Positions 36,174-53,710 of a DNA stretch of 64,000 nucleotides are shown here, one piece after another. The DNA comes from an uncultured Solibacteraceae bacterium (GTDB taxonomy: Bacteria; Acidobacteriota; Terriglobia; Bryobacterales; Bryobacteraceae). The DNA lies in NCBI GenBank assembly GCA_964353255.1, contig CAYGVJ010000007.1, forward strand, positions 317 to 64,316, read 5' to 3'. Position numbers and translations under genes: made by a program. How positions within the stretch are numbered: the stretch's first letter is position 1; every line of letters starts with the position of its first letter. Below the pieces are notes generated by a model. It made no database searches. It was not told where the DNA came from and was given only the letters and a program-made list of their open reading frames with translations.

Positions 36174-36758
36174 TTGGCGCTGGCGAGCGTCATTGGACAT
36201 GGAGCCGAAGTGATCTTTCGGGAGGTCGAGGACCACGACCTGATCGGGCGGGCCCGGCGGGGCGATGTCGAAGCTTACAACCTGCTGGTCTCGCGCTGGG
36301 AGAGGCGCGTCTTCAATTACCTGCTGCGGCTGGTGGGCGACCGCGAGGACGCATTCGACCTGAGCCAGGAGACGTTCTTGAAGGCCTATCAGAACCTGGG
36401 CAAGCTGGAGGAGGACGGGCGGTTTGCCTCCTGGTTGTTTCGCATCGCGCACAACGAGGCTTTCTCGCTGCTGCGCCGGCGCAAGCCGGAGGGCGAGCTA
36501 CCGCCGCAGGTTGCGGACGGGCGCGCCCGCTACGGGATGTTTCCCGCGGAGCTTAGCCTGGCGGTCGAAAGCGCGCTGGCCCGCCTCTCGGACGAGCAAC
36601 GCGAAGCCGTTCTGCTCAAGGTTTACCAGGGTTTCAAGTTCGAGGAGATGGCGGAGGTTTTGGCCTGCCCGGTCTCCACCATCAAGTCGCGGCTATACAC
36701 CGCTCTGGACGTTCTCAAAGAGACGCTGGCTCCAATTCAGACTCGGGGTGTCGAATGA
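36174..36758 (+). CDS. ECF-type RNA polymerase sigma-70 factor
   Basis: Region 2 (AYNLLVSRWERRVFNYLLRLVGDREDAFDLSQETFLKAY) and region 4 (REAVLLKVYQGFKFEEMAEVLACPVSTIKSRLYTAL). TTG start; GTG near 36210 is an alternative. Confidence 0.85.
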   Translation: MALASVIGHGAEVIFREVEDHDLIGRARRGDVEAYNLLVSRWERRVFNYLLRLVGDREDAFDLSQETFLKAYQNLGKLEEDGRFASWLFRIAHNEAFSLLRRRKPEGELPPQVADGRARYGMFPAELSLAVESALARLSDEQREAVLLKVYQGFKFEEMAEVLACPVSTIKSRLYTALDVLKETLAPIQTRGVE

Positions 36759-37318
36759 GCTGCTCGCCGTTTGAACTCAAAGACTACTTCCTCGATGAGC
36801 TGGGCCCGGCCGAGCGCCGGCAGGTCGAGGACCACTTGCAGGACTGCCCGGTTTGCCGGGAAGAGCTGGAACGCCTGCACTTGACGCGATCGGCGCTCGA
36901 CGCGCTGAGAGACGAAGAGCCGCCGCGGCGGATCGCTTTCGTCTCCGACAAGGTCTTCCAGCCGGGCTGGTGGCAGCGGCTCTGGCAATCCGCGCCGCGG
37001 CTGGGCTTCGCCGCGGCCGCCCTGCTCTCGGCGGCGATTTTTGCGCACGCCCTCTTGCGGCCCGCTCCCACGGCGGCGCCCGTGGCCGCGGATACCGCAG
37101 CCATCGAAGCGCGCATCGGCGCGGCGGTGGCCGAGGCGGTGGCCGCCAGCGAGGCGCGCCAGGTCCGCCAGACCGCGCAGCTTGTCGCCGACGTCGAGAA
37201 GCGCCTGGACTTCGACCGCCGCGCCGACCGGGTGGCCTTCGAGGAAGTCTTCAGCGTGCTTCAGAAAAGATACAACGTCATGTTCATGGCCAGCGCCGAG
37301 CTGGGGGTGCGAAAATGA
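36755..37318 (+). CDS. Anti-sigma factor (zf-HC2, single-pass membrane)
   Basis: H-x3-C-x2-C motif (EDHLQDCPVCREEL) and one TM segment. 4-nt overlap with the sigma gene. Confidence 0.7.
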   Translation: MSCSPFELKDYFLDELGPAERRQVEDHLQDCPVCREELERLHLTRSALDALRDEEPPRRIAFVSDKVFQPGWWQRLWQSAPRLGFAAAALLSAAIFAHALLRPAPTAAPVAADTAAIEARIGAAVAEAVAASEARQVRQTAQLVADVEKRLDFDRRADRVAFEEVFSVLQKRYNVMFMASAELGVRK

Positions 37319-37857
37319 AACGCTCGCTGCTGCTGGCGCTGTTGCTGGCCACCGCTCTGGGCACGGCCGAGAGGCCGCGCGTCACGCGCGTGGCGCTGGA
37401 GGCGATGGAGAAAACCTTCGACCAGCGGGTCCTGCGCTTCGACTTGAACGACCCGTTCGATCTGCTGGGCTCCACGCGTGGGGTCTACCTGGAGGGCTAT
37501 GGCGCGGTCTTCACCGCCGAGGTCAACCTGGTGGCCAGCGCCGTGATCACTCCCTTCCGCCCGGCGCCGGACCGGGAGCAGATCGAGCGGCTGCGTCAGA
37601 AGAAGCAGGAGCGGGTGGCGCTGCTCAAGAAACACATGCGCGAGATGCTGTTGAACCTGGCGGCGTCACTGGAGGCGGTCCCACCCAGCGAGCAGATCGC
37701 GCTGGGCGTCTCGGTGTTCTACTTCTCCTGGGAGGATCGCGGCGGCCTGCCGAGCCAGATCCTCATGCAGGCGCGGCGCCAGACGCTGCTGGATCTGGCG
37801 GGCAAGCGCGCCAGCGACCAGACGCTCCGGGATCTCATTCGCGTCGAGGAGTTCTGA
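37315..37857 (+). CDS. Exported hypothetical protein co-transcribed with the sigma/anti-sigma pair
   Basis: ATGA overlap with the anti-sigma stop. Signal peptide MKRSLLLALLLATALGTA. 180 aa. The longer 36853 frame is rejected. Confidence 0.5.
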   Translation: MKRSLLLALLLATALGTAERPRVTRVALEAMEKTFDQRVLRFDLNDPFDLLGSTRGVYLEGYGAVFTAEVNLVASAVITPFRPAPDREQIERLRQKKQERVALLKKHMREMLLNLAASLEAVPPSEQIALGVSVFYFSWEDRGGLPSQILMQARRQTLLDLAGKRASDQTLRDLIRVEEF

Positions 37858-37860
37858 AAG

Positions 37861-39498
37861 ATGCGCCTTGGCGAGATGCTGATCGCCCGCGGGCTGCTGG
37901 AGCCCGAGGATCTGGAGAAGGCGCTCGAAATCCAAAAAGAGCGCGGGGAGAAGATCGGTAAGATTCTGGTGGACCTGGGATTCGTGGCGGTGCGCGACGT
38001 GCTGGCCGCGCTCTCCGAGCAACTCGGCATCCCGCTGGTGGCGATCGACGCTCCCCCGCCGGTGACGCCCGAGACCGAGGGCCTCGCGCCCCGCTTCATG
38101 CGGCAGTGCCGGTTCATCCCGGTGGCCCTTCAGGATTCCACGCTCACCATCGCCATGGCGGACCCGCTGGACTTTGAGACCATCTCGGCGGTGCGGGGCT
38201 TCACCGGCCTGAGCGTCGAGGCGGTGCTGGCCGCGGAGCGGGAGATCCTGGACGCCATCGACAAGTATTGCGGCGAAGCCGAGAAGGAAGCCGCCGAGTC
38301 GGGGGCCCGCACCAGCCAGGCGGACGAAGACCTCGAACACCTGCGCGACATGGCCAGCGAAGCTCCGGTCATCCGCCTGGTCAACGCCATGATCGCCCAG
38401 GCAGTCGAGCAGCGCTCCAGCGACATCCACATCGAGCCGTTCGAGAAGGAATTCCGCGTCCGCTACCGCATCGACGGCGTGCTCTACAGCCAGGAGCCGC
38501 CGCCGCGCGAGTTTAAGGCGGCCATCATCTCCCGCGTCAAGCTGATGGCCAAGCTGAATATCGCCGAGCGCCGCTTGCCACAAGACGGGCGCATCAAGAT
38601 CAAGGTGTTGGGCCGCGAGGTGGACCTGCGCGTCTCGACGCTTCCTACGCTGTACGGGGAAAGTGTCGTGATGCGCCTGCTGGACCGCTCGGTGGGCGGT
38701 TTCTACGATCTCCGGAGGCTGGGCTTCGACGAGTTCATGCTGAGCCGCGTGGAGCACTACACCTCGCTGCCCCACGGGATCCTGCTGGTCACCGGGCCGA
38801 CGGGCAGCGGCAAATCCACCACGCTGTACGCGGCGCTCAAGCGCATCAACCAGCCGGACAAGAAGATCATCACGATCGAGGACCCGGTCGAGTACCAGAT
38901 GGATGGCATCAACCAGATCCACGTCAACCCGCAGATCGGCCTGACCTTCGCCAGCGGCCTGCGGCACATCGTGCGCCAGGACCCGGACGTGATCATGGTG
39001 GGCGAGATCCGCGACCGGGAGACCGCCGACATCGCCATTCGCGCCGCCCTCACCGGCCACTTCGTGTACTCGACGCTGCACACCAACGACGCCCCCAGCG
39101 CCATCACCCGCCTGACCGACATGGGAGTCGAGAACTACCTGATCAGCTCGACCCTGGTGGCGGTGCTGGCCCAGCGCCTGGTGCGGGTGATCTGCCCGCG
39201 ATGCAAGATTCCCGCGGGGACGCGCCTGGCGCCGGACGGCTCGACGGTGGCCTGCTACCGGGGCGCCGGGTGCGAAGATTGTTTCGGCACCGGTTACAGC
39301 GGGCGGGTGGGGATCTTCGAGCTGATGGAGCTCGACGATGAGCTGCGCAAGCTCATCCTTAGGAACGCCGACGCCGTCGAACTCACCGCTGCCGTCCGCC
39401 GCCACGGCATGCGGAACCTCCGCGAGGACGGTTGGATGAAGGCCGCGGCGGGGCTGACCACGGCGGAGGAAGTGCTGCGAGTGACCCAGGAACTCTGA
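37861..39498 (+). CDS. gspE: Type II secretion / type IV pilus-type assembly ATPase with an N-terminal MshEN-like domain
   Basis: Walker A GPTGSGKST, Asp/His boxes and a tetracysteine cluster (CPRC...CEDC). N-terminus RLGEMLIARGLLEPEDLEKALEIQ. Confidence 0.9.
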   Translation: MRLGEMLIARGLLEPEDLEKALEIQKERGEKIGKILVDLGFVAVRDVLAALSEQLGIPLVAIDAPPPVTPETEGLAPRFMRQCRFIPVALQDSTLTIAMADPLDFETISAVRGFTGLSVEAVLAAEREILDAIDKYCGEAEKEAAESGARTSQADEDLEHLRDMASEAPVIRLVNAMIAQAVEQRSSDIHIEPFEKEFRVRYRIDGVLYSQEPPPREFKAAIISRVKLMAKLNIAERRLPQDGRIKIKVLGREVDLRVSTLPTLYGESVVMRLLDRSVGGFYDLRRLGFDEFMLSRVEHYTSLPHGILLVTGPTGSGKSTTLYAALKRINQPDKKIITIEDPVEYQMDGINQIHVNPQIGLTFASGLRHIVRQDPDVIMVGEIRDRETADIAIRAALTGHFVYSTLHTNDAPSAITRLTDMGVENYLISSTLVAVLAQRLVRVICPRCKIPAGTRLAPDGSTVACYRGAGCEDCFGTGYSGRVGIFELMELDDELRKLILRNADAVELTAAVRRHGMRNLREDGWMKAAAGLTTAEEVLRVTQEL

Positions 39499-40706
39499 TG
39501 GCCAGTTACCACTTCAGAGCGGTGGCCCCGGACGGCAAGCTCAGGACGGGCTCGCTGGCCGGCTCGAGCGACCGGCAGGTGGCGCAGGAGCTGCGCCGCC
39601 AGGGGCTCACACCGGTCTACGTCGGCCTTCAGCCGCGCCGCAGACTGGAGTTGAGACTCCCGGTGTGGAAGCGCGGCCGGCGCCGGGACGTTATGTTCTT
39701 CACCCAGGAGCTGGCCACGCTGCTCAAAGCCGGGGTGCCGCTGGACCGGGCTCTGGGAATCACCAGCGAGCTGACCGAGCGCGCGGTCTTCAAAACAGTC
39801 GTGCAGGACGTGCTCCGGGTGCTCAAGACCGGCAAGTCCCTGGCCGACAGCCTGGCCGCGCACCCGGAGTACTTCTCCAGCCTGTATATCAACATTGTGC
39901 GGGCGGGCGAGGCCAGCGGCGCCCTGGCGCCGGTGTTCGACCGGCTGGCCGAGTTCGAGCGCACCGGCGACGAGGTGCGCAACTACATCATCTCCTCGAT
40001 GATCTACCCGGCCCTGCTGGCCATGGTGGGGATGGCCTCCATCCTGGTCCTGCTGAACTTCGTGGTGCCGCGCTTCGCCCAGGTCTTCGAGGAGTCGCGG
40101 ATGCGCATGCCGCTGGTGACCCGGGCGCTGCTGGAGATGAGCCGGCTGCTGAGGACGTACGGCTGGCTGGCTCTGGCCGCGATCGCGGCGGCAGTGGCGG
40201 GCTGGCGGGCGTACATCCGCACTTCCGGCGGCAGAATGTGGTGGGACTCTTTCCGGCTGCGCCTGCCGCTGCTGGGGCTGGCGCTGCGCAAGGCGGAGAC
40301 CTCCCGGTTTGCGCGGGCGATGGAGACCCTGGTGGCGAACAGCGTTCCCCTCGTGCAGTCGATTGGCATTGCGGCGGCCATCCTGACCAACCGCCGGATG
40401 GCCGGGGTGCTCGAGGCTGTGGCGCAGGGGGTCAAGCGGGGCGAGGGCATCGCCGGGCCGCTGGCCCGCACGGGGGAGTTTCCCCCGCTGGCCGCGCACC
40501 TGCTGAGCGTGGGGGAGGAAACCGGGCGGCTGGACCAGATGTTCGGCCGCATGGCGGAGATTTACGAGAACGAGACCCGCGCCGCGATCAAGCGGTTCAC
40601 CGCGTTGTTCGAGCCGCTGGTGATCCTGGCGATGGGCGTGATTGTGGGCGCTTTGATACTGAGCATGCTGCTGGCAATCACCAGCATCAACGAGGTGGCG
40701 GTGTGA
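39498..40706 (+). CDS. gspF: Type II secretion inner-membrane platform protein
   Basis: Two GspF/PilC repeats (F.QELATLLKAGVPL..AL; F.RAMETLVANSVPLVQSI). The ATG overlaps the gspE stop by 1 nt. Confidence 0.9.
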   Translation: MASYHFRAVAPDGKLRTGSLAGSSDRQVAQELRRQGLTPVYVGLQPRRRLELRLPVWKRGRRRDVMFFTQELATLLKAGVPLDRALGITSELTERAVFKTVVQDVLRVLKTGKSLADSLAAHPEYFSSLYINIVRAGEASGALAPVFDRLAEFERTGDEVRNYIISSMIYPALLAMVGMASILVLLNFVVPRFAQVFEESRMRMPLVTRALLEMSRLLRTYGWLALAAIAAAVAGWRAYIRTSGGRMWWDSFRLRLPLLGLALRKAETSRFARAMETLVANSVPLVQSIGIAAAILTNRRMAGVLEAVAQGVKRGEGIAGPLARTGEFPPLAAHLLSVGEETGRLDQMFGRMAEIYENETRAAIKRFTALFEPLVILAMGVIVGALILSMLLAITSINEVAV

Positions 40707-40708
40707 AC

Positions 40709-41113
40709 ATGAAGCGCGAAAGAAAGAGAAGGCGGCAGGCCGGCGTCACGCTGATCGAGATGCTGGTGGTGGTCACCATCATCTCGATGTTCGCGGGCCT
40801 GGCGGCCTACAAGCTCTGGCCGCACGTGGATACGGCGCGCATCACCCGTGCCCGCACGGACATCGGCACACTGATGGGCACGCTGGAGATGTATCGGATG
40901 CGCAATGGCGTATTCCCCACCACGGAACAGGGGTTGCAGGTTCTGCGCCCGTATCTCCAGCGTGACGTGCCCCCAGACCCCTGGGGTCGGCCGTACGTCT
41001 ACAAGTACCCCGGCTCGCAGGGCGAGGACCCCGAGATCATCTGCTACGGCGCCGACGGGAAGCCGGGCGGCGAGGGCGTCAACGCCGACATCGTGAGCTG
41101 GAAGAACCAGTGA
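40709..41113 (+). CDS. gspG: Major pseudopilin
   Basis: Prepilin leader ...AGVTLIEMLVVVTII and the GspG C-terminal signature DPWGRPYVYKYPG....I.CYGADGKPGGEG.NADI.SW. Confidence 0.9.
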   Translation: MKRERKRRRQAGVTLIEMLVVVTIISMFAGLAAYKLWPHVDTARITRARTDIGTLMGTLEMYRMRNGVFPTTEQGLQVLRPYLQRDVPPDPWGRPYVYKYPGSQGEDPEIICYGADGKPGGEGVNADIVSWKNQ

Positions 41114-41126
41114 GAGGGCGGGGCGG

Positions 41127-41588
41127 GTGCAACGCGGCATAACCCTGGTCGAGATGGTGGTGGTGATGACGCTGCTGGGCTTGCTGGTCGGCATCGCCGT
41201 GCCGTCGATTGCGGGGGGCCTGGATGCCCTGCGGCTCAGCACGGCCAGCGACTCGCTGGTGAGCTTCTTCAACGCCGCGCTCAACCGGACCGAGCGCCGG
41301 CAGCAGGCCGTCGAGATCACGATCTCGAAAGCGGACAACACGCTGCGGATGCGCTCGGTGGAGCCGGGTTTCTCAAAGACGCTGGAGCTGCCCGCGGGCG
41401 TCACCATTCGCGCTGTGTTGCCGGAGTGGCCCCAGGAGGAGCAAGGCCCGCGATACATCCTGCTGTATCCCGGCGGGGCGCTGCCCAGCTTCGGAGTCGA
41501 GATCGCCAGCCCCCGCGGCGGGCGCAGGGTGGTGCGCGTGGACCCGATCACGGGCGTGCCCCAGATCGAGCGCCTCGAGGGCCGATGA
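41127..41588 (+). CDS. Minor pseudopilin (GspH-like)
   Basis: Prepilin-type N-terminus RGITLVEMVVVMTLLGLL. Position after gspG. Confidence 0.6.
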   Translation: MQRGITLVEMVVVMTLLGLLVGIAVPSIAGGLDALRLSTASDSLVSFFNAALNRTERRQQAVEITISKADNTLRMRSVEPGFSKTLELPAGVTIRAVLPEWPQEEQGPRYILLYPGGALPSFGVEIASPRGGRRVVRVDPITGVPQIERLEGR

Positions 41589-42004
41589 ACCGCCGCGGCT
41601 TCACCCTACTGGAAATGCTGGTGGCCACGGTGATCATGGGCGTGGCGGTGGTCGCTTTGCTGGCCAATCTTTCCACCTCGATGCGCCACGCCGCCGATCT
41701 CACCGAATATGATCGCGCCACGCTGCTGGCCCGCCGCACCATGGACCAACTCCTGCTGGAACCGCGCCTGCCCCGACTGGCGCCCTTCGAGGGCCGGTTT
41801 GACGCGGAGGCCGCCGGTGGTCTGGAAGGTGGCTGGCGGGCAGAGCTCACGGTGTTCGAGGCGCCTCCGAATGCCGGCCCTGGTTCGGCCGCCCTGGAGC
41901 GCCTGGAGCTGGAGGTCTGGTGGATGCGCGGCCGCGAGCGGCGCAGCGTGCGGCTGGAGGGATTCCGGCGGACCACCTTGGGGCAGCCGGGGGTGACCCA
42001 GTGA
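41585..42004 (+). CDS. Minor pseudopilin (GspI-like)
   Basis: RRGFTLLEMLVATVIMGV prepilin N-terminus. ATGA overlap with the upstream gene. Confidence 0.6.
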   Translation: MNRRGFTLLEMLVATVIMGVAVVALLANLSTSMRHAADLTEYDRATLLARRTMDQLLLEPRLPRLAPFEGRFDAEAAGGLEGGWRAELTVFEAPPNAGPGSAALERLELEVWWMRGRERRSVRLEGFRRTTLGQPGVTQ

Positions 42005-42729
42005 ACAACCGCGGCGTGACATTGCTCGAACTGCTCGTGGCGGTCTCCCTGCTGAGCCTTCTGGCGACCGGGCTCGTGCTGGCCATGCGCCTGGGCTTCA
42101 ATGCCATGAACACGACCAATGCTCAGTTGCTCGACAACCGCCGTATGTTGAGCGTGCAGCGGATTCTCGAGCAGCAGATCGCGGGCTTGATGCCGGTGGT
42201 GGCCGATTGCCTGGTCAACCCCGGGCTGCCGCCGGCGGCGATGCCTTTCTTCCAGGGCGCGCCGACCTCCATGCGCTTCGTCTCCAGCTACTCGCTGGGT
42301 GAAGCCTGGCGCGGCTACCCGCGCATCCTGGAGTTCCAGGTGATCCCGGGCGAGGAGGGCCGCGGAGTCCGGCTGGTGGTCAACGAGCATCTGTACACCG
42401 GGCCGCGGAGCGCCGGGTCGTTCTGTCTAGGCGCGATCCCTGATCCGTCTCTGGGTGGGTGGGTGCCCGGCTTCCGGCCCATTCAGGTGGGGCCGTACTC
42501 ATTCGTTCTGGCCGACAAGCTGGCTTACTGCCGGTTCATCTACCGGGAGACGTTGCCGCCGCCGGCGCTGGCGCGCTGGACGCCGGTGTGGCCGAAGATG
42601 GGCTGGCCTTCGGCGGTGCGCATCGAGATGGCGCCGCTGGAGGCTGCCCGAGCACGGCTGCCGCTGGTGAGCATCACCGCTCCGATCCGCGTCAACAAGG
42701 TGCCTTTCAATGAGTATGCGGACTACTGA
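42001..42729 (+). CDS. Minor pseudopilin (GspJ-like)
   Basis: RGVTLLELLVAVSLLSLL prepilin N-terminus, ~242 aa. GTGA overlap with the upstream gene. Confidence 0.55.
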   Translation: MNNRGVTLLELLVAVSLLSLLATGLVLAMRLGFNAMNTTNAQLLDNRRMLSVQRILEQQIAGLMPVVADCLVNPGLPPAAMPFFQGAPTSMRFVSSYSLGEAWRGYPRILEFQVIPGEEGRGVRLVVNEHLYTGPRSAGSFCLGAIPDPSLGGWVPGFRPIQVGPYSFVLADKLAYCRFIYRETLPPPALARWTPVWPKMGWPSAVRIEMAPLEAARARLPLVSITAPIRVNKVPFNEYADY

Positions 42730-46426: not shown

Positions 46427-46852
46427 ATGAAACTGGCTGTACTGGCGCTGGCGCTGATGGCGCCGCTGGCATTCGCGGGCGCCGAGCAAAAGAAGAAATC
46501 GCCTGCTGCGCCGCCTCCGGCCAAGGAGACCGTGATCCCCAAAGAGGCCAAGCAGATCGAGCCTTACACCTACCGTTACACCGACGCGCAGGGCAAGATC
46601 TGGATCTATCGCAAAACGCCCTTCGGCGTCGTGCGCCTCCCGGAGCCGCCGCCGGAGGCCAAGCCGGTCGAGGAGATTCCCGAGGGCATGAAGGCGGCCG
46701 AAGACGGAGATAGCATCCGCTTCGAGCGGCCCACGCCCTTCGGCAAGCATCGCTGGACCCGCAAGAAGTCCGAGCTGACGGAACTGGAGCGCAGGGTCTG
46801 GGAGCGGGAGCGCCAGAAAAGCGCCCCCGCCAAATCCAATCCGCAGGAGTAA
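46427..46852 (+). CDS. Small exported Lys/Glu/Pro-rich protein immediately upstream of the secretin (pilotin-like position)
   Basis: Signal peptide MKLAVLALALMAPLAFAGA. Two TPFG motifs. 141 aa. Confidence 0.5.
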   Translation: MKLAVLALALMAPLAFAGAEQKKKSPAAPPPAKETVIPKEAKQIEPYTYRYTDAQGKIWIYRKTPFGVVRLPEPPPEAKPVEEIPEGMKAAEDGDSIRFERPTPFGKHRWTRKKSELTELERRVWERERQKSAPAKSNPQE

Positions 46853-46857
46853 GTGGA

Positions 46858-49134
46858 ATGAGAAAATCGCTGATTTGCCGTAGCGTGGTTGGCATTGCGC
46901 TGGTGGGGGGGCTGGCGGCCCAGCCGCCATCGCAGCCGCCCAGAGTGGTCCCGCCGCCCGGATTCGGGCCGTCACCCTCCTCGCTGTCTTCAGAGGCGCA
47001 GGCGGCGAAGCCGGCCGAGCCCGCGCCGGCCAAACCCGAGGCGGCCAAGCCTCCCGTTTCCCCAGCCACAATAACGCAGACCGCCTCCGGCGATTTCATC
47101 CTCAACCTTCAGAACGCCTCGCTGGTTGACGTCATCGACATCCTGGCGCGGCGGTTGAGGATCAACTACATCCTCGATGCGGGGGTCAAGGGCAGCGTCA
47201 CGATCAACACCTACGGCGAGATCAAGCAGATCGAGGTGCGCCCGCTGCTGGAAACCATTCTGCGGATCAACAACGCGGCCATGGTGCAGGTGGGCGAACT
47301 GTATCGCATCGTCCCGGTCAACCAGGTCTCCCGGCTGCCGATGAGCCCGCAGATCGACCCCAAGAGCTTTCCGGAAGACGAGCGGATGATCCTGAACCTC
47401 ATCTTCCTGAAGTACGCCACGGTGGCGGAGTTGTCCAAGCTGGTTGAGCCGTTCCTGGGCGAAGGGGCCAAGACCGTCGCCTACGATCCAGCCAACCTGT
47501 TCATCATCCTGGACAACGCCCGGAACATGAGACGCACCATGGAGCTGATCGCGTTGTTCGACAGCGACGCGCTGGCCGGGCAGCGGGTGCGGCTGCTCGA
47601 GGTCAAGAACAGCCGGCCCTCGGACATCGCCAAGGAGCTGGAATCGGTACTGAAGGCCGTCACCCTGGCGGACAAGGCCAGCGCGGTCAAGTTCCTCCCC
47701 ATCGACCGGATCAACACTCTGGTCGCCATCGCTCCGAACCCTGGGGTCTTCGAGCAGGTCGAGACCTGGCTGAAAAAGCTGGATGTGACGGTTTCCAGCA
47801 GCGCCGGGACGGTCAACAACTACGTTTATCGCGTCAAATACGGCCGGGCGGAGACCATGGCCGGGGCCATCATGCAGCTCTACTTCGGCAGCATGGGGAT
47901 GGGTTACCTGGGCTACGGCATGGGCGGCTCCGGCATGGGCGGCTCCGGCATGGGCGGTTACGGCATGGGGGGCTACGGCATGGGGGGCTACGGCATGGGG
48001 GGCTACGGCATGGGCGGTTACGGCGTCGCATCTCCGGGCTACGGGGGAATGATGCCTGGTCAGGGCCTGAGCATGCCGACTTCCTCGGTCACTGGCTACA
48101 GCCCTTCAGGCTTGGTTTCGGGCCAGGCAAGCGCGGGCGGCGGCGCCACCGCCGCCGGGACCGGCGCGCTGCGCGCGGGCACCGACCTTACGGGTTCCTA
48201 CCTGGGCTACGGCGGCGGCTACATGATGCCCGCCAGCCCGCGCATCGTCCCTAATCCTTTCGACAGCACGCTGCTGATTCAGGCCACCCGGCAGGAGTAC
48301 GATCAGATACTAAAGCTGCTCAAGGAACTCGACGTTTCCCCGCGCCAGGTCCTCATCCAGGCCAAGATCTACGAGGTTAATCTCACCGGCGCCTTCGCCA
48401 GCGGCGTGGGAGCCTTCCTGCAAAAGATAAGCGGGGCCGAGCGTCAGCTCGCCGGCTCTTTCAACTCCTCCGGCAACATCGGCGTTTCCCTCAGCACGGG
48501 AATGCTGGTGGGGCAGAGCCGGCAGTTGCTGGCATTTCTGACCGCGCAAGAGGACAACCGCCGCGCCAAGGTGATCTCAGCGCCGAGCGTTATCGCCACC
48601 GACAGCATCGCTGCTTCCATCACTGTGGGCAGCGAGGTGCCGACCCTGGCGTCTCAGGCGGTGGCCGGCGGCCTTCAGGTCGGCGGCAACAGCCTGTTCG
48701 CCAACACCGTTCAGAGCCGGCAGACCGGGGTGACCTTGGACATAACCGCGCGCGTGAACCCCAGCGGCATCGTCACGCTGATGATCAATCAGGAGGTCAG
48801 TGCCCCGCAGGCGCCGGCGGCGAGCGCCGCCATTCAGTCGCCCTCCTTCTCCCGCCGCCAGGTGCACACCCAGGTGACGGTCCAGGACGGCGACACCATT
48901 GCCATTGGCGGCATCATCAACGAGTCGGACACTTACAGCACCAACGGCATTCCCATCCTGCACCGGCTGCCGGGCATCGGGGCTTTGTTCGGGAACAAGT
49001 CGATCAGCAAGGAGCGGACCGAGCTGGTGATCTTCATGACCGCACGGGTCATCTACGACACCAACGAGATCACCGAGGCCAGCGACGAGATCCGGAGCGG
49101 CTTCCGGCGTTTGCAGAAGCTGTTCCGAGAATAG
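46858..49134 (+). CDS. gspD: Secretin (GspD/PilQ family) with an internal Gly/Tyr/Met repeat insertion
   Basis: N0/N1-type domains (LQNASLVDVIDILARRLRINYILD), secretin core (VLIQAKIYEVNL, ISAPSVIATDS, VQDGDTIAIGGI, IPILHRLPGIGALFG). Confidence 0.9.
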   Translation: MRKSLICRSVVGIALVGGLAAQPPSQPPRVVPPPGFGPSPSSLSSEAQAAKPAEPAPAKPEAAKPPVSPATITQTASGDFILNLQNASLVDVIDILARRLRINYILDAGVKGSVTINTYGEIKQIEVRPLLETILRINNAAMVQVGELYRIVPVNQVSRLPMSPQIDPKSFPEDERMILNLIFLKYATVAELSKLVEPFLGEGAKTVAYDPANLFIILDNARNMRRTMELIALFDSDALAGQRVRLLEVKNSRPSDIAKELESVLKAVTLADKASAVKFLPIDRINTLVAIAPNPGVFEQVETWLKKLDVTVSSSAGTVNNYVYRVKYGRAETMAGAIMQLYFGSMGMGYLGYGMGGSGMGGSGMGGYGMGGYGMGGYGMGGYGMGGYGVASPGYGGMMPGQGLSMPTSSVTGYSPSGLVSGQASAGGGATAAGTGALRAGTDLTGSYLGYGGGYMMPASPRIVPNPFDSTLLIQATRQEYDQILKLLKELDVSPRQVLIQAKIYEVNLTGAFASGVGAFLQKISGAERQLAGSFNSSGNIGVSLSTGMLVGQSRQLLAFLTAQEDNRRAKVISAPSVIATDSIAASITVGSEVPTLASQAVAGGLQVGGNSLFANTVQSRQTGVTLDITARVNPSGIVTLMINQEVSAPQAPAASAAIQSPSFSRRQVHTQVTVQDGDTIAIGGIINESDTYSTNGIPILHRLPGIGALFGNKSISKERTELVIFMTARVIYDTNEITEASDEIRSGFRRLQKLFRE
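47911..48024 (+). repeat. Tandem 15-nt coding repeat (about 7.5 units, consensus GGCTACGGCATGGGG, encoding GYGMG/GSGMG)
   Basis: Direct reading of 47911-48024. In frame within the secretin gene. Confidence 0.9.
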
Positions 49135-49290
49135 GACCGCTGGCCACCGCAAAGGTCCGCGCCCCAACTGCCGATATGCTTGGTGCGTGGCTTCGCAGGG
49201 ACCACTGCGCCAGGCTGGCGGCCCGCCTTTGAGACCCAACCCGCCACGAGCCGGCAGCGCCCCGGATGCCCGCGGACGGGAACCTAGCCC

Positions 49291-50508
49291 ATGGTCAAGG
49301 TGCTGCTGGTCGAGGACAACTCTGGGGATGCGGAACTGGTGCAGGAGATGCTCGCCGAGGCCGAAGGCGCTCCCTTCACCATCCTGTGGTCCGCCTCGCT
49401 TTGGGCCGGTCTGGACCGCCTGGCCGAGGAACAGGTGGACGTAGTCCTGTTGGATCTGTTTCTGCCGGATTGCCACGGGCTGGAAACCTTCACCGCCTTG
49501 CGCGCCCACGCGCCGGGCGTGCCCGTGGTGGTGCTCACCGGCCTGGACAGCGAGGCAGTGGCGATGGCCGCGGTGCGCGAGGGCGCCCAGGACTATTTGG
49601 TCAAGGGCAAGCTGGAGAGTGAGTCTCTGGTGCGGGCGCTGCGCTACGCCTTGGTCCGGCACTCCAAGCAGGCGGAGCCGGCCTCGCCGGAGGAGCGCCG
49701 GCAGGCGGGCATGGTGGGCCTGCTGGGCGCCAAGGGCGGCGTGGGCGTCACTACCCTGGCCTGCCATCTGGCCCTGGAGCTGCGCCGCCAGGCTGACGAG
49801 GGCGTCCTGGTGGTGGATCTGGACCTGAACGCCGGCTTGCTGGGTTTCCTGCTGAAGGCCAGCGCGTCGTTCTCGATCCTGGACGCGGTCAAGAACATCC
49901 TGCGGCTGGATGTGGAGGGGTGGAAGAGCATGGTATCGTCCGGCACCGGAGGCCTGAAGTTGCTCCCCGCTCCGAGCGCGGCGCCCCTGGAGGAACTGCC
50001 CCCGGCGGGCAGGATCTGCCACGTGCTGCGCTTCGCCCGGCTGCATTACCGCTGGATCGTGGCTGACCTGGGGCGGCTCACGGCTTTCTCCGTCAAGCTT
50101 CTCAAGGAGTTCGACGAGTTGCTCCTGGTTACCACCGATGATGTGACCGCGTTGCGCGAGGCCCTGCGTGCCGGCCGGCAGATCCTGGACAGCGGCTTCC
50201 CGGCGGAGCACCTGCGGCTGGTCCTCGACGGGGCGCCCCGATCGCTGGATATTCCGGTCAACGACGTCGAGCAGGTGGTGGGCCTGCCGGTCTACGCCGT
50301 GCTTCCGGAAGACGGCCGGCAGTTGCGCAAGGCCGGCCTACGCGGCGAGCTGCTGGCCGAGGACAGCGCCTTGCGTCAAAGCATCGCCCGCCTGGCCGCC
50401 CGCCTGGCGGGCGCCGCCGACCAGCCGGGGGAGGCCAAGTCGCGCCGGACGGGCTGGGACCTGAGGAGAATCGTGCGCTGGGGAGCGAATCGCGGCGCGC
50501 CGGCTTGA
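49291..50508 (+). CDS. Response-regulator receiver fused to a CpaE/TadZ-like (ParA/MinD superfamily) ATPase domain
   Basis: REC: VLLVEDNSGD, DVVLLDLFLPD, VVVLTG, DYLVKG. Deviant P-loop region GLLGAKGGVGVTTLA. Confidence 0.75.
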   Translation: MVKVLLVEDNSGDAELVQEMLAEAEGAPFTILWSASLWAGLDRLAEEQVDVVLLDLFLPDCHGLETFTALRAHAPGVPVVVLTGLDSEAVAMAAVREGAQDYLVKGKLESESLVRALRYALVRHSKQAEPASPEERRQAGMVGLLGAKGGVGVTTLACHLALELRRQADEGVLVVDLDLNAGLLGFLLKASASFSILDAVKNILRLDVEGWKSMVSSGTGGLKLLPAPSAAPLEELPPAGRICHVLRFARLHYRWIVADLGRLTAFSVKLLKEFDELLLVTTDDVTALREALRAGRQILDSGFPAEHLRLVLDGAPRSLDIPVNDVEQVVGLPVYAVLPEDGRQLRKAGLRGELLAEDSALRQSIARLAARLAGAADQPGEAKSRRTGWDLRRIVRWGANRGAPA

Positions 50509-50536
50509 GGACCGGCGGTGTGGATTCATTGCGGGG

Positions 50537-52075
50537 GTGACCCTGTCAGAAGGTGCCGGCATGCACCTGCCCGAGAATGAGAAGACCGGAGTCCTGGTGG
50601 TCGGCGGGGACGCCGACCAGGCTGGATTCCTGACCGAGCTGCTGGCCCGCGTCCAGGGCGCGCCTTTTCGGGTCCACTGCGTGGAGCGGCCCCCGATCGC
50701 GCGGGAGCGGTCCGCGCAGGGCGGCATCGATGCTGTGCTGCTGATTCTGCCGGCGTCCAGCGCGCTGGCGCGGGACGCCGTGCACGAGTTGCGCGCGCAA
50801 GCCCCGCGGGCGCCGGTCCTTCTGCTGGCCGAACGCGAAGACGAGGCCCTGGCCGTCAGGTTGCTCCGCGAGGGGGCCGAGGACTTCCTGGTGCGGCCGC
50901 AGGTGTCCGGGCCGGCGCTGGCGCGCGTCATCCGCCGGGCCATCGAACGACATCGGCTGCGGGAAGTGGCCGTGGCCGCCAGCCGGGAGTTCGAAAGGCA
51001 GCGCAAAGAGCGCCGGCGCGCCGAGGAGGTCCTCAACAACTTCTTCGTACTGGCGGTCGAGCCGCTCTGCATCATCGGGTTCGATGGCCGCTTCCGGTGC
51101 CTCAACCCAGCCTGGGAAGCCTTGGTCGGCGCCAGCTTGCAGCAACTGATGGAGACTCCTTTTCTCGAGCTGGTTCATCCGGAGGACCGTGGCGCGACAG
51201 CCGAGGAGTTCCGGCAACTGCTGGCCGGCGCCCAGACGCGGGCCTTCGAGAACCGCTGCCTGGCCCAGGACGGCTCCGCCCGGTGGTTGCTGTGGAAAGC
51301 GGCTTCCTCCCCCGAGGAAAAGCTGGTCTACGCCGCGGTGCACGACATCACCGTACGCAAGCAGGCCGAAGAAGCCCTGGCGCGTTCCAACGCGGAGCTG
51401 GAACGGTTCGCTTACGTGGCCTCGCACGACCTTCAGGAGCCGCTGCGCATGGTGGCCAGCTACACCGGGCTGCTGGCCCGGCGCTATCGGGGCCGGCTCG
51501 ACGAGCGCGCCGACCGTTGGATCGCCTACGCGGTGGACGGCGCCAGGCGGATGCAGGAACTCATCCACGATCTGCTGGCCTACTCCCGGGCGCAGGCGGA
51601 GGCCGGCGTTCTCAAGCCCGCCAGCCTGGAGGCCGCCTTCGACACCGCGGTCGGCAACGTGCGCGCGGCGGTGGAAGAAACCAGCGCCACCATCACCCAC
51701 GATCTGCTGCCCACGCTGGCGGCCCGGCCCGGCCAGTTGGTCCAACTGTTTCAGAACCTGCTCAGCAACGCCCTCAAGTTCCGCGGCCAGGACCCGCCCC
51801 GCATCCAGGTTTCGGCCCAACCTCAAGGCGACCACTGGCTGTTCGCGGTCCGCGACAACGGCGTGGGCTTCGATCCGCAGGACAGCGAAAGAATCTTCCA
51901 GTTGTTCGAACGCCGGCACGACAAGCGCCTCTACCCCGGCACCGGCCTGGGACTGGCCATCTGCCAGCGGATCGTGGAAGCGCACGGGGGCCGCATCTGG
52001 GCCGAGTCCGGCCGGGGCGCGGGCGCCACTTTCTATTTCACCCTGCCCGCGATGGAAGAGGAAGCTGCCGCATGA
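50537..52075 (+). CDS. Cytoplasmic sensor histidine kinase: pseudo-receiver, PAS, HisKA, HATPase_c
   Basis: H-box FAYVASHDLQEPLR, N-box LLSNALKF, G1 RDNGVGF, G2 GTGLGLAICQ. PAS core between residues ~165-285. The N-terminal REC-like fold lacks the acceptor Asp (DAVLLIL). Confidence 0.85.
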   Translation: MTLSEGAGMHLPENEKTGVLVVGGDADQAGFLTELLARVQGAPFRVHCVERPPIARERSAQGGIDAVLLILPASSALARDAVHELRAQAPRAPVLLLAEREDEALAVRLLREGAEDFLVRPQVSGPALARVIRRAIERHRLREVAVAASREFERQRKERRRAEEVLNNFFVLAVEPLCIIGFDGRFRCLNPAWEALVGASLQQLMETPFLELVHPEDRGATAEEFRQLLAGAQTRAFENRCLAQDGSARWLLWKAASSPEEKLVYAAVHDITVRKQAEEALARSNAELERFAYVASHDLQEPLRMVASYTGLLARRYRGRLDERADRWIAYAVDGARRMQELIHDLLAYSRAQAEAGVLKPASLEAAFDTAVGNVRAAVEETSATITHDLLPTLAARPGQLVQLFQNLLSNALKFRGQDPPRIQVSAQPQGDHWLFAVRDNGVGFDPQDSERIFQLFERRHDKRLYPGTGLGLAICQRIVEAHGGRIWAESGRGAGATFYFTLPAMEEEAAA

Positions 52076-52533
52076 AGGGCACGCAACTAGGCCGGCCCGT
52101 CGAGATTCTCCTGGTGGAGGACAACCCCGGGGACGTCGAACTCACCATAGAGGCGTTCCAGGAGGCCCGGCTGCTGAATCACGTCAGCGTGGCCCGCGAC
52201 GGGCAGCAGGCCATCGATTTCCTGCGCCGGGCGGGACCCTATGCCCGGGCGCCCCGCCCGGACCTGATTCTGCTGGACTTGAACCTGCCCCAGCGCCATG
52301 GTTACGAGGTGCTCAAGGAAGTCAAGCGGGATCCGGGACTGGCCCGCATTCCGGTGTTGATCCTGACTTCCTCGCAAGCCGAGCGCGACGTCGCGGAGAG
52401 CTATTCGCTCCACGCCAACTGTTTTGTCTCCAAGCCCCTGGAGGTGGAGGAGTTTCTTTCGGTAGTAAAGTCGATCACCGAGTTTTGGCTCGCTGTGGTG
52501 AGGCTGCCGCTGGGCGATGAAACCAGAGCATGA
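52072..52533 (+). CDS. Stand-alone response regulator (receiver only)
   Basis: ILLVEDNPGD, DLILLDLNLP, VLILTSS and SKP motifs. ATGA overlap with the kinase stop. Confidence 0.85.
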   Translation: MKGTQLGRPVEILLVEDNPGDVELTIEAFQEARLLNHVSVARDGQQAIDFLRRAGPYARAPRPDLILLDLNLPQRHGYEVLKEVKRDPGLARIPVLILTSSQAERDVAESYSLHANCFVSKPLEVEEFLSVVKSITEFWLAVVRLPLGDETRA

Positions 52534-53710
52534 GAAGACCGTAGTCCTGCTGGTGGCGGATCGTCTCGGAGAGGCGGAGTTCTTTCGCCAGACGCTGGCC
52601 GCGGCCGAGGGCTCTGGCTTCCAGGTTGAGTGCGCTGAGCGGCTCTCGGAGGCCCTGGCCCGCGCGAGGCAGGGAGACATCGACGTGGTCCTGCTGGAGT
52701 TGTCCCTGCCGGACAGCTCCGGCTTGGAGACCTTCCTCAAGATGCAGGCCGCGGCGCCGCAACTGCCCGTGGTGATCCTGGCCGACGCCGCCGGCGAGAA
52801 GCTGGCCTTCAGCGCGCTGCGCCAGGGCGCGCAAGATTATCTGCTCACAGGACGCGGCCCGGCAAGCCTGATTGTGCGGTCGCTCAGGAATGCTATCGAG
52901 CGGCACCGCTCGGTGGTCCAGGCGCCGCCCGGGCGGTCCAGGGGCGCCAGGCAGGCTGGGCGCGTGGTGGCCTTCCTCGGCGTCAAGGGGGGCGTGGGCG
53001 CCACCACCGTGGCTTTGAACGTGGCCACCGTACTGGCCGGCCGGCACTCGGTGGTAGCGGTGGAGCTGCGGGGCGGATTCGGCGCCTTCGCGCCGCACCT
53101 AGGCCAGCGCGAGCCGGTCGAGAACCTGGGCAGCCTTTGGGCGCTGGATCCGGACCAGTTGGACGAGCGGGACCTGGCCCGGCGCCTGGTCAGCCTTCCC
53201 TCGGGGTTGCGTGTGATGTTCGGTCCCCAGCGGGCCTCCGAGTGCCGGGAAGTCACGTCCGGGCACGCCGCGGCGCTCATTCACAGGCTGGCCGACTTGG
53301 CCGAGTGCCAGGTTTTGGATCTGCCGGCCTTTCCCTGCGCCGCCAACCGCGCCGCGGCGCGTTGCTCTCAACTGCTGGCGCTGGTGGTGGAGCGGGAGCC
53401 GGGCGCGGTGTTGGCCGCCGGGCAGATGCTGGAGCTGCTGCGGTCCTGGAACGCTACCCAGGGGCTGATCGGCGTCGTGATCGTCAACCGCACTTCGCTG
53501 GCAGCGCCCATGCCGCTCCACGAGATCACCGCGCAGCTCGGCTCCGCCCTACTGGGGGTGATCCCGCCCGCGCCGGACCTGTGCGCCAAAGCTTTGCACG
53601 CGGGAACGCTGGCGGTGCTCCTGGAGCCGGACAGCATGCTGGCCGGCAGCTTCCGTGCGCTGGCGGAAAAACTGGAGCCCGCAGCCATGCTAGCGCCGCC
53701 CCGCCCCTGA
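52517..53710 (+). CDS. Second receiver-like / CpaE/TadZ-like ATPase fusion (acceptor position is Glu)
   Basis: REC-like VVLLVADRLGE, DVVLLELSLPD, DYLLTG. P-loop region AFLGVKGGVGATTVA. Paralogous in layout to 49291-50508. Confidence 0.75.
   Translation: MKPEHEKTVVLLVADRLGEAEFFRQTLAAAEGSGFQVECAERLSEALARARQGDIDVVLLELSLPDSSGLETFLKMQAAAPQLPVVILADAAGEKLAFSALRQGAQDYLLTGRGPASLIVRSLRNAIERHRSVVQAPPGRSRGARQAGRVVAFLGVKGGVGATTVALNVATVLAGRHSVVAVELRGGFGAFAPHLGQREPVENLGSLWALDPDQLDERDLARRLVSLPSGLRVMFGPQRASECREVTSGHAAALIHRLADLAECQVLDLPAFPCAANRAAARCSQLLALVVEREPGAVLAAGQMLELLRSWNATQGLIGVVIVNRTSLAAPMPLHEITAQLGSALLGVIPPAPDLCAKALHAGTLAVLLEPDSMLAGSFRALAEKLEPAAMLAPPRP

What the first reader, a model, noticed from the sequence alone, without database searches (positions are those of the whole stretch)
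36174..53710. ECF-sigma-headed T2SS-like machine ending in twin REC-CpaE/TadZ-like ATPases around a kinase and response regulator: a hybrid T2SS/Tad regulatory layout
There are about 19 co-directional genes with many overlapping stops and starts: 36755, 37315, 39498, 41585, 42001, 42710, 43783, 45078, 45668, 52072, 52517. The order is ECF sigma, anti-sigma, exported 180-aa protein, then 3 nt later GspE, F, G, H/I/J-like, K, L/M/C-like proteins, a small exported protein and the secretin. After these come REC-ParA-like, PAS histidine kinase, single-domain RR and a second REC-ParA-like protein. CpaE/TadZ-type receiver-ParA proteins are a hallmark of Tad pilus loci, where they localise the machine. 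They are not part of classical T2SS. No prepilin peptidase (GspO/PilD) is encoded in the cluster. The combination suggests a secretion or pilus apparatus whose placement or assembly is under phosphorelay and extracytoplasmic-stress control.
Basis: partly seen in the sequence, partly recalled or inferred. Interest (0 to 1): 0.65.

Follow-up and report, generated by a model that had tools for sequence, protein, structure and literature searches.

The report
ECF-sigma-controlled T2SS with an inserted regulator cassette
A soil acidobacterium carries a protein-secretion machine that appears to be switched on by its own dedicated sigma factor, an arrangement shared by about 80 related species, while the pilus-type regulator genes at its end are a one-species insertion and not part of the machine's conserved design.

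Summary
The organism is a member of the Bryobacteraceae (Acidobacteriota). The core is a true type II secretion system (T2SS): GspE, GspG and GspD pass NCBIfam equivalog cut-offs.

The finding splits into two parts.

1. The head is conserved. ECF sigma, zf-HC2 anti-sigma and an exported 180-aa protein are collinear with gspE-gspD in essentially every one of 80 Bryobacterales species loci. An ECF-type promoter motif, G[AT]CTTTT-N13-CGTC, lies upstream of sigma in 62 of 65 loci. A second copy with the same spacing lies inside gspK in about 70 loci. That copy is held by strongly disfavoured codons (Ser TCT 70/71, against a 5% background). A third copy appears upstream of gspF where reverse-strand genes split the operon.

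2. The tail is not conserved. REC-ParA, kinase, response regulator and REC-ParA are absent from all 80 loci. In the nearest relative gspD is followed directly by the gene that follows the cassette here. The same four-gene cassette occurs elsewhere with no secretion genes nearby.

So the "hybrid T2SS/Tad layout" is a species-specific juxtaposition. The ECF-headed T2SS is genuine. Its closest precedent is Pseudomonas aeruginosa sigma-VreI and the Hxc T2SS.

The parts
36168..36191 (+). P1: ECF-type promoter motif GACTTTTTGGCGCTGGCGAGCGTC. The -35-like part is GACTTTT and the -10-like part is GCGTC. A GGAG ribosome-binding site and the sigma start follow.
   Evidence: The same motif lies at the same distance upstream of the sigma orthologue in 62 of 65 loci. 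It is the top hit in the window with a PWM built from those sites (46 bits).
36210..36758 (+). ECF sigma factor (182 aa from GTG 36210; the longest ORF starts at 36174)
   Evidence: Pfam Sigma70_r2, r4_2 and Sigma70_ECF. Start inferred from orthologue alignment and upstream stop codons and from 182-aa gene calls in L171-L173.
36755..37318 (+). Single-pass anti-sigma factor with an N-terminal zf-HC2 domain. Its start overlaps the sigma stop.
   Evidence: Pfam PF13490. Collinear in 64 or more loci.
37315..37857 (+). Exported 180-aa protein of unknown fold, the third conserved gene of the sigma module. Its stop lies 3 nt before gspE.
   Evidence: No Pfam or NCBIfam match. About 510 homologues, all 'hypothetical'. 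Collinear in about 63 loci. AF2 pLDDT 88 and pTM 0.79, with no PDB neighbour.
37861..39498 (+). GspE secretion ATPase with an N-terminal MshEN c-di-GMP-binding motif
   Evidence: TIGR02533 635 bits (cut-off 630). NF053729 MshE-related c-di-GMP motif 62 bits (cut-off 38). Pfam T2SSE and MshEN.
39498..40706 (+). GspF inner-membrane platform protein
   Evidence: Pfam T2SSF x2. TIGR02120 372 bits, below the cut-off of 424.
40709..41113 (+). GspG major pseudopilin
   Evidence: TIGR01710 111 bits (cut-off 89). Pfam T2SSG and N_methyl.
41127..42729 (+). Three minor pseudopilins in the H/I/J positions (41127-41588, 41585-42004, 42001-42729)
   Evidence: Pfam N_methyl in each. Collinear in the relatives.
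42710..43786 (+). GspK minor pseudopilin (gene callers start it at about 42731)
   Evidence: Pfam T2SSK_1st and T2SSK, both above cut-off.
43285..43308 (+). P2: second copy of the ECF promoter motif, inside gspK. The sequence is GTCTTTTCGGGCCCGCCATGCGTC and it encodes PSFRARHAS. It lies about 475 nt upstream of gspL.
   Evidence: A PWM built from P1 sites alone recovers it in about 60 loci, with only about 4 other hits in the 1.4 Mb of loci scanned on both strands. Codon test: TCT 70/71 Ser (background 5%), ACT 6/6 Thr, TTT 67/77 Phe (background 28%), GCG 74/74 Ala. Four of the six A/T-ending codon outliers among 985 conserved columns lie here.
43783..45081 (+). GspL-position protein: an actin-like PilM-type N-terminus, a transmembrane segment and a PilN-like C-terminus
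   Evidence: Pfam PilN 31 bits and a weak TIGR01175 pilM match. Orthologues are 46-68% identical in 80 species.
45078..45671 (+). GspM (subtype b)
   Evidence: Pfam T2SSM_b 29 bits (cut-off 21.7).
45668..46393 (+). GspC-like bitopic protein (241 aa)
   Evidence: Only a weak NF041515 GspC_delta match (18.9 bits, far below the cut-off). Position and N-terminal transmembrane segment. Collinear in the relatives.
46427..46852 (+). Small exported 141-aa protein directly upstream of the secretin
   Evidence: No family match. The signal peptide is visible in the sequence. Conserved in most loci.
46858..49134 (+). GspD secretin with a Gly/Tyr/Met-rich low-complexity insert
   Evidence: TIGR02517 373 bits (cut-off 351). 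Pfam N0, Secretin_N and Secretin. Found in 69 loci.
49291..50508 (+). Inserted cassette, gene 1: canonical receiver plus a CpaE/TadZ-like ParA/MinD domain (Walker A-like box KGGVGVTT)
   Evidence: Pfam Response_reg and CBP_BcsQ/CbiA. Asp55, Thr and Lys of the receiver are conserved. Homologues are named CpaE by JGI. Best PDB match is 3EA0, a ParA-family ATPase.
50537..52075 (+). Inserted cassette, gene 2: degenerate receiver-PAS-HisKA-HATPase histidine kinase
   Evidence: Pfam. Ile occupies the phospho-Asp position. The kinase core is 48-61% identical to the cassette kinases in L001, L085, L088, L091 and L165.
52072..52533 (+). Inserted cassette, gene 3: single-domain response regulator
   Evidence: Pfam Response_reg 71 bits. 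56-64% identical to the cassette regulators elsewhere.
52517..53710 (+). Inserted cassette, gene 4: atypical receiver plus a CpaE/TadZ-like ParA domain (KGGVGATT). The receiver has Glu at the phospho-site and lacks the conserved Thr and Lys.
   Evidence: Pfam. 38% identical to gene 1 over the N-terminal 239 aa. Receiver alignment.
53795..54487 (+). Conserved 230-aa gene of unknown function. It follows gspD directly in relatives and marks the far edge of the insertion.
   Evidence: Homologues lie immediately after gspD in L011, L057, L171 and L172. No Pfam match.

Best explanation
The region 36.2-49.1 kb is a Bryobacterales-type T2SS. It appears to be transcribed as the dedicated regulon of its own ECF sigma factor.

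Proposed mechanism:
- A single-pass zf-HC2 anti-sigma holds the sigma factor inactive. The conserved periplasmic 180-aa protein probably takes part in this. The role of that protein is inferred, not shown.
- On release, sigma-RNA polymerase fires from P1 upstream of its own gene. That gives autoregulation and transcription of sigma, anti-sigma, the 180-aa gene and gspE through gspK.
- It also fires from P2, embedded in the gspK coding sequence. That boosts gspL, gspM, the gspC-like gene, the 141-aa gene and gspD.
- GspE carries a c-di-GMP-binding MshEN N-terminus, which adds a post-translational input.

The four genes at 49.3-53.7 kb (REC-CpaE-like, kinase, response regulator, REC-CpaE-like) are a separately evolving signalling cassette. 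It was inserted between gspD and the next gene in this species only. It is not part of the conserved T2SS design.

Shown in silico: gene content, synteny, motif conservation, the codon-level constraint and the insertion. Inferred: promoter activity, the sigma-promoter pairing, the role of the 180-aa protein and the independence of the cassette's function.
For: T2SS identity: equivalog-level matches for GspE, GspG and GspD, plus T2SSF, T2SSK and T2SSM_b.

Sigma linkage: sigma, anti-sigma and the 180-aa gene are collinear with gspE-gspD in all loci with enough flank (65 sigma hits and 69 secretin hits among 80 species loci). Gene junctions are tight or overlapping.

Promoters:
- P1 is present in 62 of 65 loci. 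P2 has identical spacing in about 70 loci.
- A PWM trained only on P1 finds P2 specifically. It gives 2 hits in the 64-kb window and about 4 stray hits in the 1.4 Mb of loci, both strands scanned.
- The synonymous positions of P2 are fixed against codon bias.
- When Ser changes to Thr the codon is ACT, which preserves G[AT]CTTTT.
- In L019 and L072, where reverse-strand genes split gspE from gspF, a third motif copy sits upstream of gspF.

Cassette as an insertion:
- Absent from all 80 loci.
- L171/L172 show gspD followed directly by the 232-aa gene and then CT398, with identical flanks. L011 and L057 show the same gspD junction.
- The same four-gene order occurs in L085 among unrelated genes. 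Tandem REC-ParA pairs stand alone in L001, L164 and L166.
- No ECF motif precedes the cassette.
Against: - There are no transcript data. P1 and P2 are sequence inferences, and their pairing with this particular sigma factor rests only on co-conservation.
- P2 lies about 475 nt upstream of gspL, which is a long leader.
- No terminator is detectable between gspD and REC-ParA1. Read-through could therefore co-express the cassette with the T2SS in this species, and a functional link acquired after insertion cannot be excluded.
- Contigs from the closest sampled population (180-aa protein 91% identical, L173) end before gspD. The age of the insertion is therefore not resolved.
Confidence: 0.72

Rival explanations
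1. The twin REC-CpaE/TadZ-like proteins, the kinase and the regulator are a working part of this T2SS. They place or gate the machine by phosphorelay, so the locus is an integrated T2SS/Tad-style hybrid.
For: The cassette is co-directional and lies 157 nt after gspD, with no detectable terminator. The junction is stable in four assemblies. The ParA domains carry the TadZ-type K/RGGxGxS/T box. TadZ/CpaE localises Tad machines.
Against: The adjacency is absent in 80 of 80 related species loci and in the nearest relative. Cassette orthologues are free-standing among unrelated genes. No ECF promoter motif lies upstream. The closest REC-ParA1 homologue is only 50% identical, whereas the T2SS proteins have homologues at 65-88%.
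Confidence: 0.18
2. The conserved gspK-internal motif is not a promoter. Its nucleotide conservation reflects another constraint, such as an RNA structure, a translational pause at rare codons or a binding site for another factor.
For: It lies inside a coding sequence and encodes a conserved peptide, PSFRARHAS. It contains rare codons (TCT, TTT) that could slow translation.
Against: It matches, with identical spacing, a PWM trained only on the intergenic sites upstream of sigma, including the GCGTC[T/A]TT extension. Ser-to-Thr substitutions keep the DNA motif (ACT). A third intergenic copy appears upstream of gspF exactly where the operon is interrupted.
Confidence: 0.12
3. The machine is a pilus or other type IV filament system and not a secreting T2SS.
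For: The GspL position is occupied by a PilM/PilN-like protein. GspE also scores 588 bits against the PilB model. GspF falls below the GspF equivalog cut-off. GspC is only weakly recognisable.
Against: GspE, GspG and GspD each exceed T2SS equivalog cut-offs, while the PilB, PilQ and PilC models fall below theirs. GspK and GspM_b are present. The major subunit is a short GspG-type pseudopilin. There is no PilT-like retraction ATPase in the cluster.
Confidence: 0.08

Closest known systems
Pseudomonas aeruginosa vreA-vreI-vreR (PUMA3) next to the hxc T2SS genes
   Same: An ECF sigma/anti-sigma pair is encoded beside a T2SS gene cluster and switches it on. hxc genes rise 3-5 log2 units in a vreR mutant (PMC7035377). 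A third, periplasmic partner gene accompanies the pair.
   Different: Here the anti-sigma is a zf-HC2 type. From my own knowledge, not tested here, VreR is FecR-like and VreA is a TonB-dependent-receptor-like signalling protein. Here all genes form one co-directional, overlapping array with a second promoter inside gspK. The arrangement is conserved across an entire acidobacterial order. I did not compare the sequences directly.
Classical Gsp-type T2SS (Pul/Eps/Xcp)
   Same: The gene order is E-F-G-H-I-J-K-L-M, with GspD carrying an N0 domain. There are equivalog-level matches for E, G and D.
   Different: The secretin gene is last, not first. GspL is replaced by a PilM/PilN-like protein. GspC is barely recognisable. 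There is no gspO. Two extra exported proteins are present. GspD has a Gly/Tyr/Met-rich insert.
TadZ/CpaE of Tad (type IVc) pili
   Same: A ParA/MinD domain with a Walker A-like K/RGGxGxS/T box that lacks the canonical P-loop lysine, preceded by a receiver-like domain. More distant homologues (33-44% identity) lie in RcpC/RcpA-containing Tad loci, directly after RcpA in L098 and L099.
   Different: There are no Tad genes in the 64-kb window. REC-ParA1 and most relatives have a canonical, apparently phosphorylatable receiver, not the atypical one. The proteins occur as tandem pairs with their own kinase and regulator.
MshE/GspE-type ATPases with the MshEN c-di-GMP receptor domain
   Same: The GspE N-terminus matches the MshE-related c-di-GMP motif model above its cut-off. 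Such domains are known in T2SS ATPases (Roelofs 2015 and Wang 2016, as cited in PMC12943098).
   Different: Binding was not tested. Here it is combined with ECF control.
Other ECF-controlled secretion machines (ECF32 HrpL with T3SS; SigP with T9SS)
   Same: A dedicated ECF sigma factor has a conserved genomic link to a secretion apparatus (PMC7826278).
   Different: A different machine and a different ECF group. The main text of that classification lists no T2SS-linked ECF group. Its supplements were not available.

Membership tests
Type II secretion system (Gsp) | GspE-type assembly ATPase | tested here: met
   TIGR02533 635 bits against a cut-off of 630.25. The PilB model scores 588 against a cut-off of 676.
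Type II secretion system (Gsp) | GspD secretin with an N0 domain | tested here: met
   TIGR02517 373 against 351. Pfam type_II_gspD_N0, Secretin_N and Secretin.
Type II secretion system (Gsp) | GspG major pseudopilin plus minor pseudopilins H, I, J and K | tested here: met
   TIGR01710 111 against 89. Three N_methyl proteins. T2SSK_1st and T2SSK are above their cut-offs.
Type II secretion system (Gsp) | GspF platform protein | tested here: met
   Pfam T2SSF x2 (179 bits). The TIGR02120 equivalog score is 372, below its cut-off of 424.
Type II secretion system (Gsp) | GspL, GspM and GspC assembly-platform proteins | tested here: inconclusive
   GspM_b is met (29 against 21.7). The L position holds a PilM/PilN-like protein (PilN 31 bits). 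The GspC_delta match is only 18.9 bits against a cut-off of 150.
Type II secretion system (Gsp) | Prepilin peptidase GspO/PilD | tested here: not met
   None in the cluster or in the 64-kb window. It may be encoded elsewhere in the genome, which could not be searched.
ECF sigma / anti-sigma module | A sigma factor with only regions 2 and 4, an adjacent co-transcribed anti-sigma, and an autoregulatory promoter with an AC-containing -35 and a CGTC-type -10 | tested here: met
   Pfam r2, r4_2 and Sigma70_ECF. zf-HC2 anti-sigma with a 4-nt overlap. GAC-N17-CGTC motif upstream in 62 of 65 loci. Promoter activity itself was not tested.
TadZ/CpaE (Tad pilus localisation ATPase) | Walker A-like K/RGGxGxS/T box in a ParA/MinD fold | tested here: met
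   KGGVGVTT and KGGVGATT. K148, G149, G150 and G152 are invariant or nearly so in 23 homologues. The consensus is taken from bioRxiv 10.64898/2026.07.08.737194.
TadZ/CpaE (Tad pilus localisation ATPase) | N-terminal atypical (non-phosphorylatable) receiver domain | tested here: inconclusive
   REC-ParA2 is atypical: Glu at the Asp site, and no conserved Thr or Lys. REC-ParA1 has all the canonical receiver residues.
TadZ/CpaE (Tad pilus localisation ATPase) | Encoded within a tad/cpa locus (next to RcpC, RcpA and CpaF/TadA) | tested here: not met
   No Tad genes in the window. The nearest homologues are free-standing. Only homologues at 33-44% identity are in Tad loci.
PUMA3 / VreAIR-Hxc type ECF-T2SS unit | FecR-type anti-sigma and a receptor-like VreA partner | tested here: not met
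   The anti-sigma here is zf-HC2 with no FecR domain. The third protein has no family match and no PDB neighbour. The description of the Vre proteins comes from my own knowledge and from PMC7035377.

The most novel reading that the evidence does not exclude
After its insertion, the twin REC-CpaE/TadZ-like cassette was co-opted in this species. It would be co-transcribed by read-through from the gspK-internal ECF promoter, and it would position or gate the T2SS. That would be the first ParA/MinD-type, phosphorelay-controlled placement system for a type II secretion machine, layered on ECF and c-di-GMP control.
Probability: 0.12. Interest if true: 0.7.

Novelty: new variant of a known kind. Interest (0 to 1): 0.45.

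Why it matters
Acidobacteria of the order Bryobacterales are abundant soil and peat degraders, and almost nothing is known about how they control protein secretion.

What the analysis provides:
- A concrete, testable regulatory model for their T2SS: a dedicated ECF sigma/anti-sigma/periplasmic-protein switch, two mapped candidate promoters and a c-di-GMP-sensing ATPase.
- A clean example of a promoter maintained inside a coding sequence against codon bias.
- A conserved exported protein with a confident model but no known structural relative, as a candidate signal-input component.
- A correction to an attractive but unsupported reading. The CpaE-like regulators are an independently mobile cassette whose own target, if any, remains unknown.

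Tried and rejected
- The consensus sigma-70 promoter and intrinsic-terminator scan of 35-54.8 kb gave no more hits than shuffled sequence, and none at the junctions.
- Folding the 157-nt gspD/REC-ParA1 gap gave z = +1.1, so there is no special structure.
- Rfam and tRNA scans found nothing in the locus. The only hit is tRNA-Asp at 58666.
- A search for target-site duplications or repeats at the two cassette junctions found only chance-level 7-8-mers.
- Foldseek of the 180-aa protein model against the PDB gave no match better than E = 0.12.
- PDB sequence search with REC-ParA1 found generic ParA (3EA0), MinD and receiver domains. No TadZ structure was in the top 60.
- Literature searches for an ECF-T2SS link in Acidobacteria found nothing. 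The ECF reclassification paper does not mention T2SS in its main text, and its supplements are not held.
- The metagenome scan for REC-ParA relatives returned mostly receiver-only hits. Only about 15 loci were useful.
- The tblastn secretin hits were fragmented by the low-complexity insert. Secretin ends had to be checked by ORF listing.
- The closest population contig, L173, ends inside gspM, so it cannot date the insertion.

Full report
**Observation**

The window is 65-70% GC. Between 36.2 and 53.7 kb it holds 19 co-directional ORFs, and many stop and start codons overlap. Pfam and NCBIfam give the following:
- ECF sigma factor and a zf-HC2 anti-sigma.
- An exported 180-aa protein with no family match.
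- GspE: TIGR02533, 635 bits, cut-off 630.
- GspF.
- GspG: TIGR01710, 111 against 89.
- Three N_methyl pseudopilins.
- GspK.
- A PilM/PilN-like protein in the GspL position.
- GspM_b.
- A weakly GspC-like protein.
- An exported 141-aa protein.
- GspD: TIGR02517, 373 against 351.
- REC-ParA, a degenerate-REC-PAS histidine kinase, a single-domain response regulator and a second REC-ParA.

- The sigma factor probably starts at GTG 36210.
- The ORF at 45668 ends at 46393.
- The response regulator ends at 52533.

No prepilin peptidase is present in the cluster. None was found among about 40 annotated ORFs of the window or by a six-frame motif scan. Names attached to homologues place the organism in the Bryobacteraceae, Acidobacteriota.

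**Is the layout conserved?**

I took the GspL-position protein as an anchor because it lies in the middle of the cluster. I aligned 26 homologues and fetched the 80 best loci from species-representative genomes with 10-kb flanks. All were Bryobacterales-type MAGs or genomes.

tblastn with the 19 window proteins gave two clear results:
- Sigma, anti-sigma, the 180-aa gene, gspE through the gspC-like gene and gspD are collinear in essentially every locus with enough flank (the 141-aa gene in most). There were 65 sigma hits and 69 secretin hits.
- None of the four tail genes gave a hit downstream of the secretin in any locus.

A profile HMM of REC-ParA homologues, searched against all ORFs of the 80 loci, confirmed the second result. 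It found only a receiver domain in L067 and a ParA fragment at the edge of L026, both about 10 kb upstream.

**The tail is an insertion**

The 230-aa gene that follows REC-ParA2 in the window (53795-54487) has homologues immediately after gspD in L009, L011, L012 and L057.

The closest relative with a long contig is L171/L172. Its GspL protein is 68% identical and its 180-aa protein 79% identical to the window's. Its gene order is sigma, anti-sigma, the 180-aa gene, gspE through gspD, a 232-aa gene, then CT398-like on the reverse strand. That matches the window's flanks exactly, without the four genes.

The window's gspD/REC-ParA1 junction is seen in four independent assemblies, so it is real. 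No flanking repeats were detectable.

**What the cassette is elsewhere**

REC-ParA1 has thousands of homologues. JGI names them CpaE-family, and the nearest is only 50% identical. Their contexts are:
- L001: two tandem REC-ParA genes beside a divergently transcribed kinase and regulator.
- L164 and L166: tandem pairs among unrelated genes.
- L165: kinase, regulator, REC-ParA.
- L085: the same order as in the window (REC-ParA, kinase, regulator, REC-ParA). It is flanked by an IS200 transposase, an acyltransferase, a Schlafen-like gene and an epimerase.
- None of these contexts has T2SS genes.
- Homologues at 33-44% identity lie in canonical Tad loci containing RcpC and RcpA, directly after RcpA in L098 and L099, with an A24 peptidase nearby.

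Both window proteins carry KGGVGxTT. This fits the TadZ Walker A-like consensus K/RGGxGxS/T and lacks the canonical P-loop lysine.

The receiver domains differ:
- REC-ParA1 and the single-domain regulator have complete receiver active sites.
- REC-ParA2 has Glu at the phospho-site and lacks the conserved Thr and Lys.
- The kinase N-terminus has Ile at the phospho-site.

**The head is a real, conserved control unit**

Orthologue alignment places the sigma start at the LIFREVED motif. Immediately upstream, 62 of 65 loci carry G[AT]CTTTT-N13-CGTC, followed by GGAG and the start codon. Written as GAC-N17-CGTC, this has the form of an ECF promoter. That comparison rests on my own knowledge of ECF -35 "AAC" and -10 "CGTC" elements. 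In the window it is at 36168-36191.

The same pattern with identical spacing recurs at 43285 inside gspK, and at the equivalent place in about 70 loci. Four observations argue that this second site is a DNA signal and not a by-product of protein conservation.

1. Codon use at the site runs against the local bias:
   - The Ser codon is TCT in 70 of 71 cases. The background in the same genes is 5.1% of Ser codons.
   - Where Thr replaces Ser, the codon is ACT in 6 of 6 cases. The background is 7.6%. The DNA motif is preserved.
   - Phe is TTT in 67 of 77 cases. The background is 28%.
   - Ala is GCG in 74 of 74 cases. The background is 44%.
2. Among 985 conserved amino-acid columns in seven genes, only six have an A/T-ending dominant codon at 80% or more. 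Four of the six lie in GspK residues 187-206.
3. A PWM trained only on the intergenic P1 sites recovers the gspK site in about 60 loci. It gives only about 4 other hits in the 1.4 Mb of loci scanned on both strands. In the 64-kb window it gives exactly these two sites.
4. In L019 and L072, reverse-strand genes separate gspE from gspF: a PIN-like and a methyltransferase-like gene in L072, and a larger insert in L019 whose content was not examined. A third copy of the motif lies 65-130 nt upstream of gspF in both loci.

No copy precedes the REC-ParA cassette.

**Other components**

- The 180-aa protein has about 510 homologues, all unnamed and all from the same lineage.
- It gives a confident AlphaFold model with mixed alpha/beta structure (pLDDT 88, pTM 0.79). 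The model has no PDB neighbour better than E = 0.12.
- The GspE N-terminus matches the MshE-related c-di-GMP-binding model above its cut-off. This is a known feature of some T2SS ATPases.

**Comparison with known systems**

The nearest precedent for an ECF sigma factor beside a T2SS, and controlling it, is Pseudomonas aeruginosa sigma-VreI/VreR with the Hxc system (PMC7035377). The present unit differs in three ways:
- The anti-sigma type is zf-HC2.
- It is a single overlapping gene array with an internal promoter.
- It is conserved across the order.

I found no description of it in searches on Acidobacteria or in the main text of the ECF reclassification paper. I file it as a new variant of a known kind.

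**Verdict**

- The ECF head is a conserved and probably functional control unit.
- The "hybrid T2SS/Tad regulatory layout" is a species-specific juxtaposition of an independently evolving CpaE-like two-component cassette.
- A secondary functional link in this one species cannot be excluded. There is no terminator signal after gspD. I put that possibility at about 0.12-0.18.
- All promoter claims are in-silico inferences that await transcription-start mapping.

Noticed in passing
window 46858-49134 (aa ~340-470 of GspD); L004 12653-15040: The secretin carries a long Gly/Tyr/Met-rich low-complexity insert (GMGGSGMGGYGMGGYG...) between the N-domains and the secretin core. The L004 orthologue has an even longer GGYGGMGG run. 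It fragmented the tblastn hits.
   Followed up: partly
window 37315-37857: The exported 180-aa protein is conserved with the sigma/anti-sigma pair. Its AlphaFold model is confident (pLDDT 88), but it has no Pfam or NCBIfam family and no PDB structural neighbour.
   Followed up: yes
L072 4219-5636 and 5698; L019 5629: Reverse-strand genes (PIN-like and methyltransferase-like in L072; the L019 insert was not examined) split gspE from gspF. A third copy of the ECF promoter motif lies just upstream of gspF.
   Followed up: yes
window 53795-54487: A 230-aa protein with no family match and no signal peptide. It directly follows gspD in relatives (L011, L057, L171, L172). It could be a conserved accessory or cargo-related gene of the cluster.
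   Followed up: partly
window 52517-53710 and 50537-50950: REC-ParA2 has Glu at the phospho-acceptor position and lacks the receiver Thr and Lys, whereas its counterparts in L001, L164 and L166 keep Asp. The kinase N-terminus is also a degenerate receiver, with Ile at that position.
   Followed up: partly
window 35206-35722: A PIN-domain toxin gene, preceded by a small ORF that is probably its antitoxin, lies immediately upstream of the sigma promoter. The same pair is present in the close relative L173.
   Followed up: no
window 2073-12033: A patch of defence-like genes: Macro domain, TIR_2, AbiEii nucleotidyltransferase and an LTXXQ/metal-resistance protein.
   Followed up: no
L165 4545-4787: In another lineage a kinase-regulator-REC-ParA cassette is followed by an 80-aa murJ fragment 73% identical to the window's murJ (55260-56978). 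The window cassette also lies near murJ. The meaning is unclear.
   Followed up: no
window 36729 region (sigma residue 186): The only conserved-column codon outlier outside gspK, other than GspE D280, is Ala186 GCT of the sigma factor (84% of loci). It lies just before the overlapping anti-sigma start and may be part of its ribosome-binding region.
   Followed up: no
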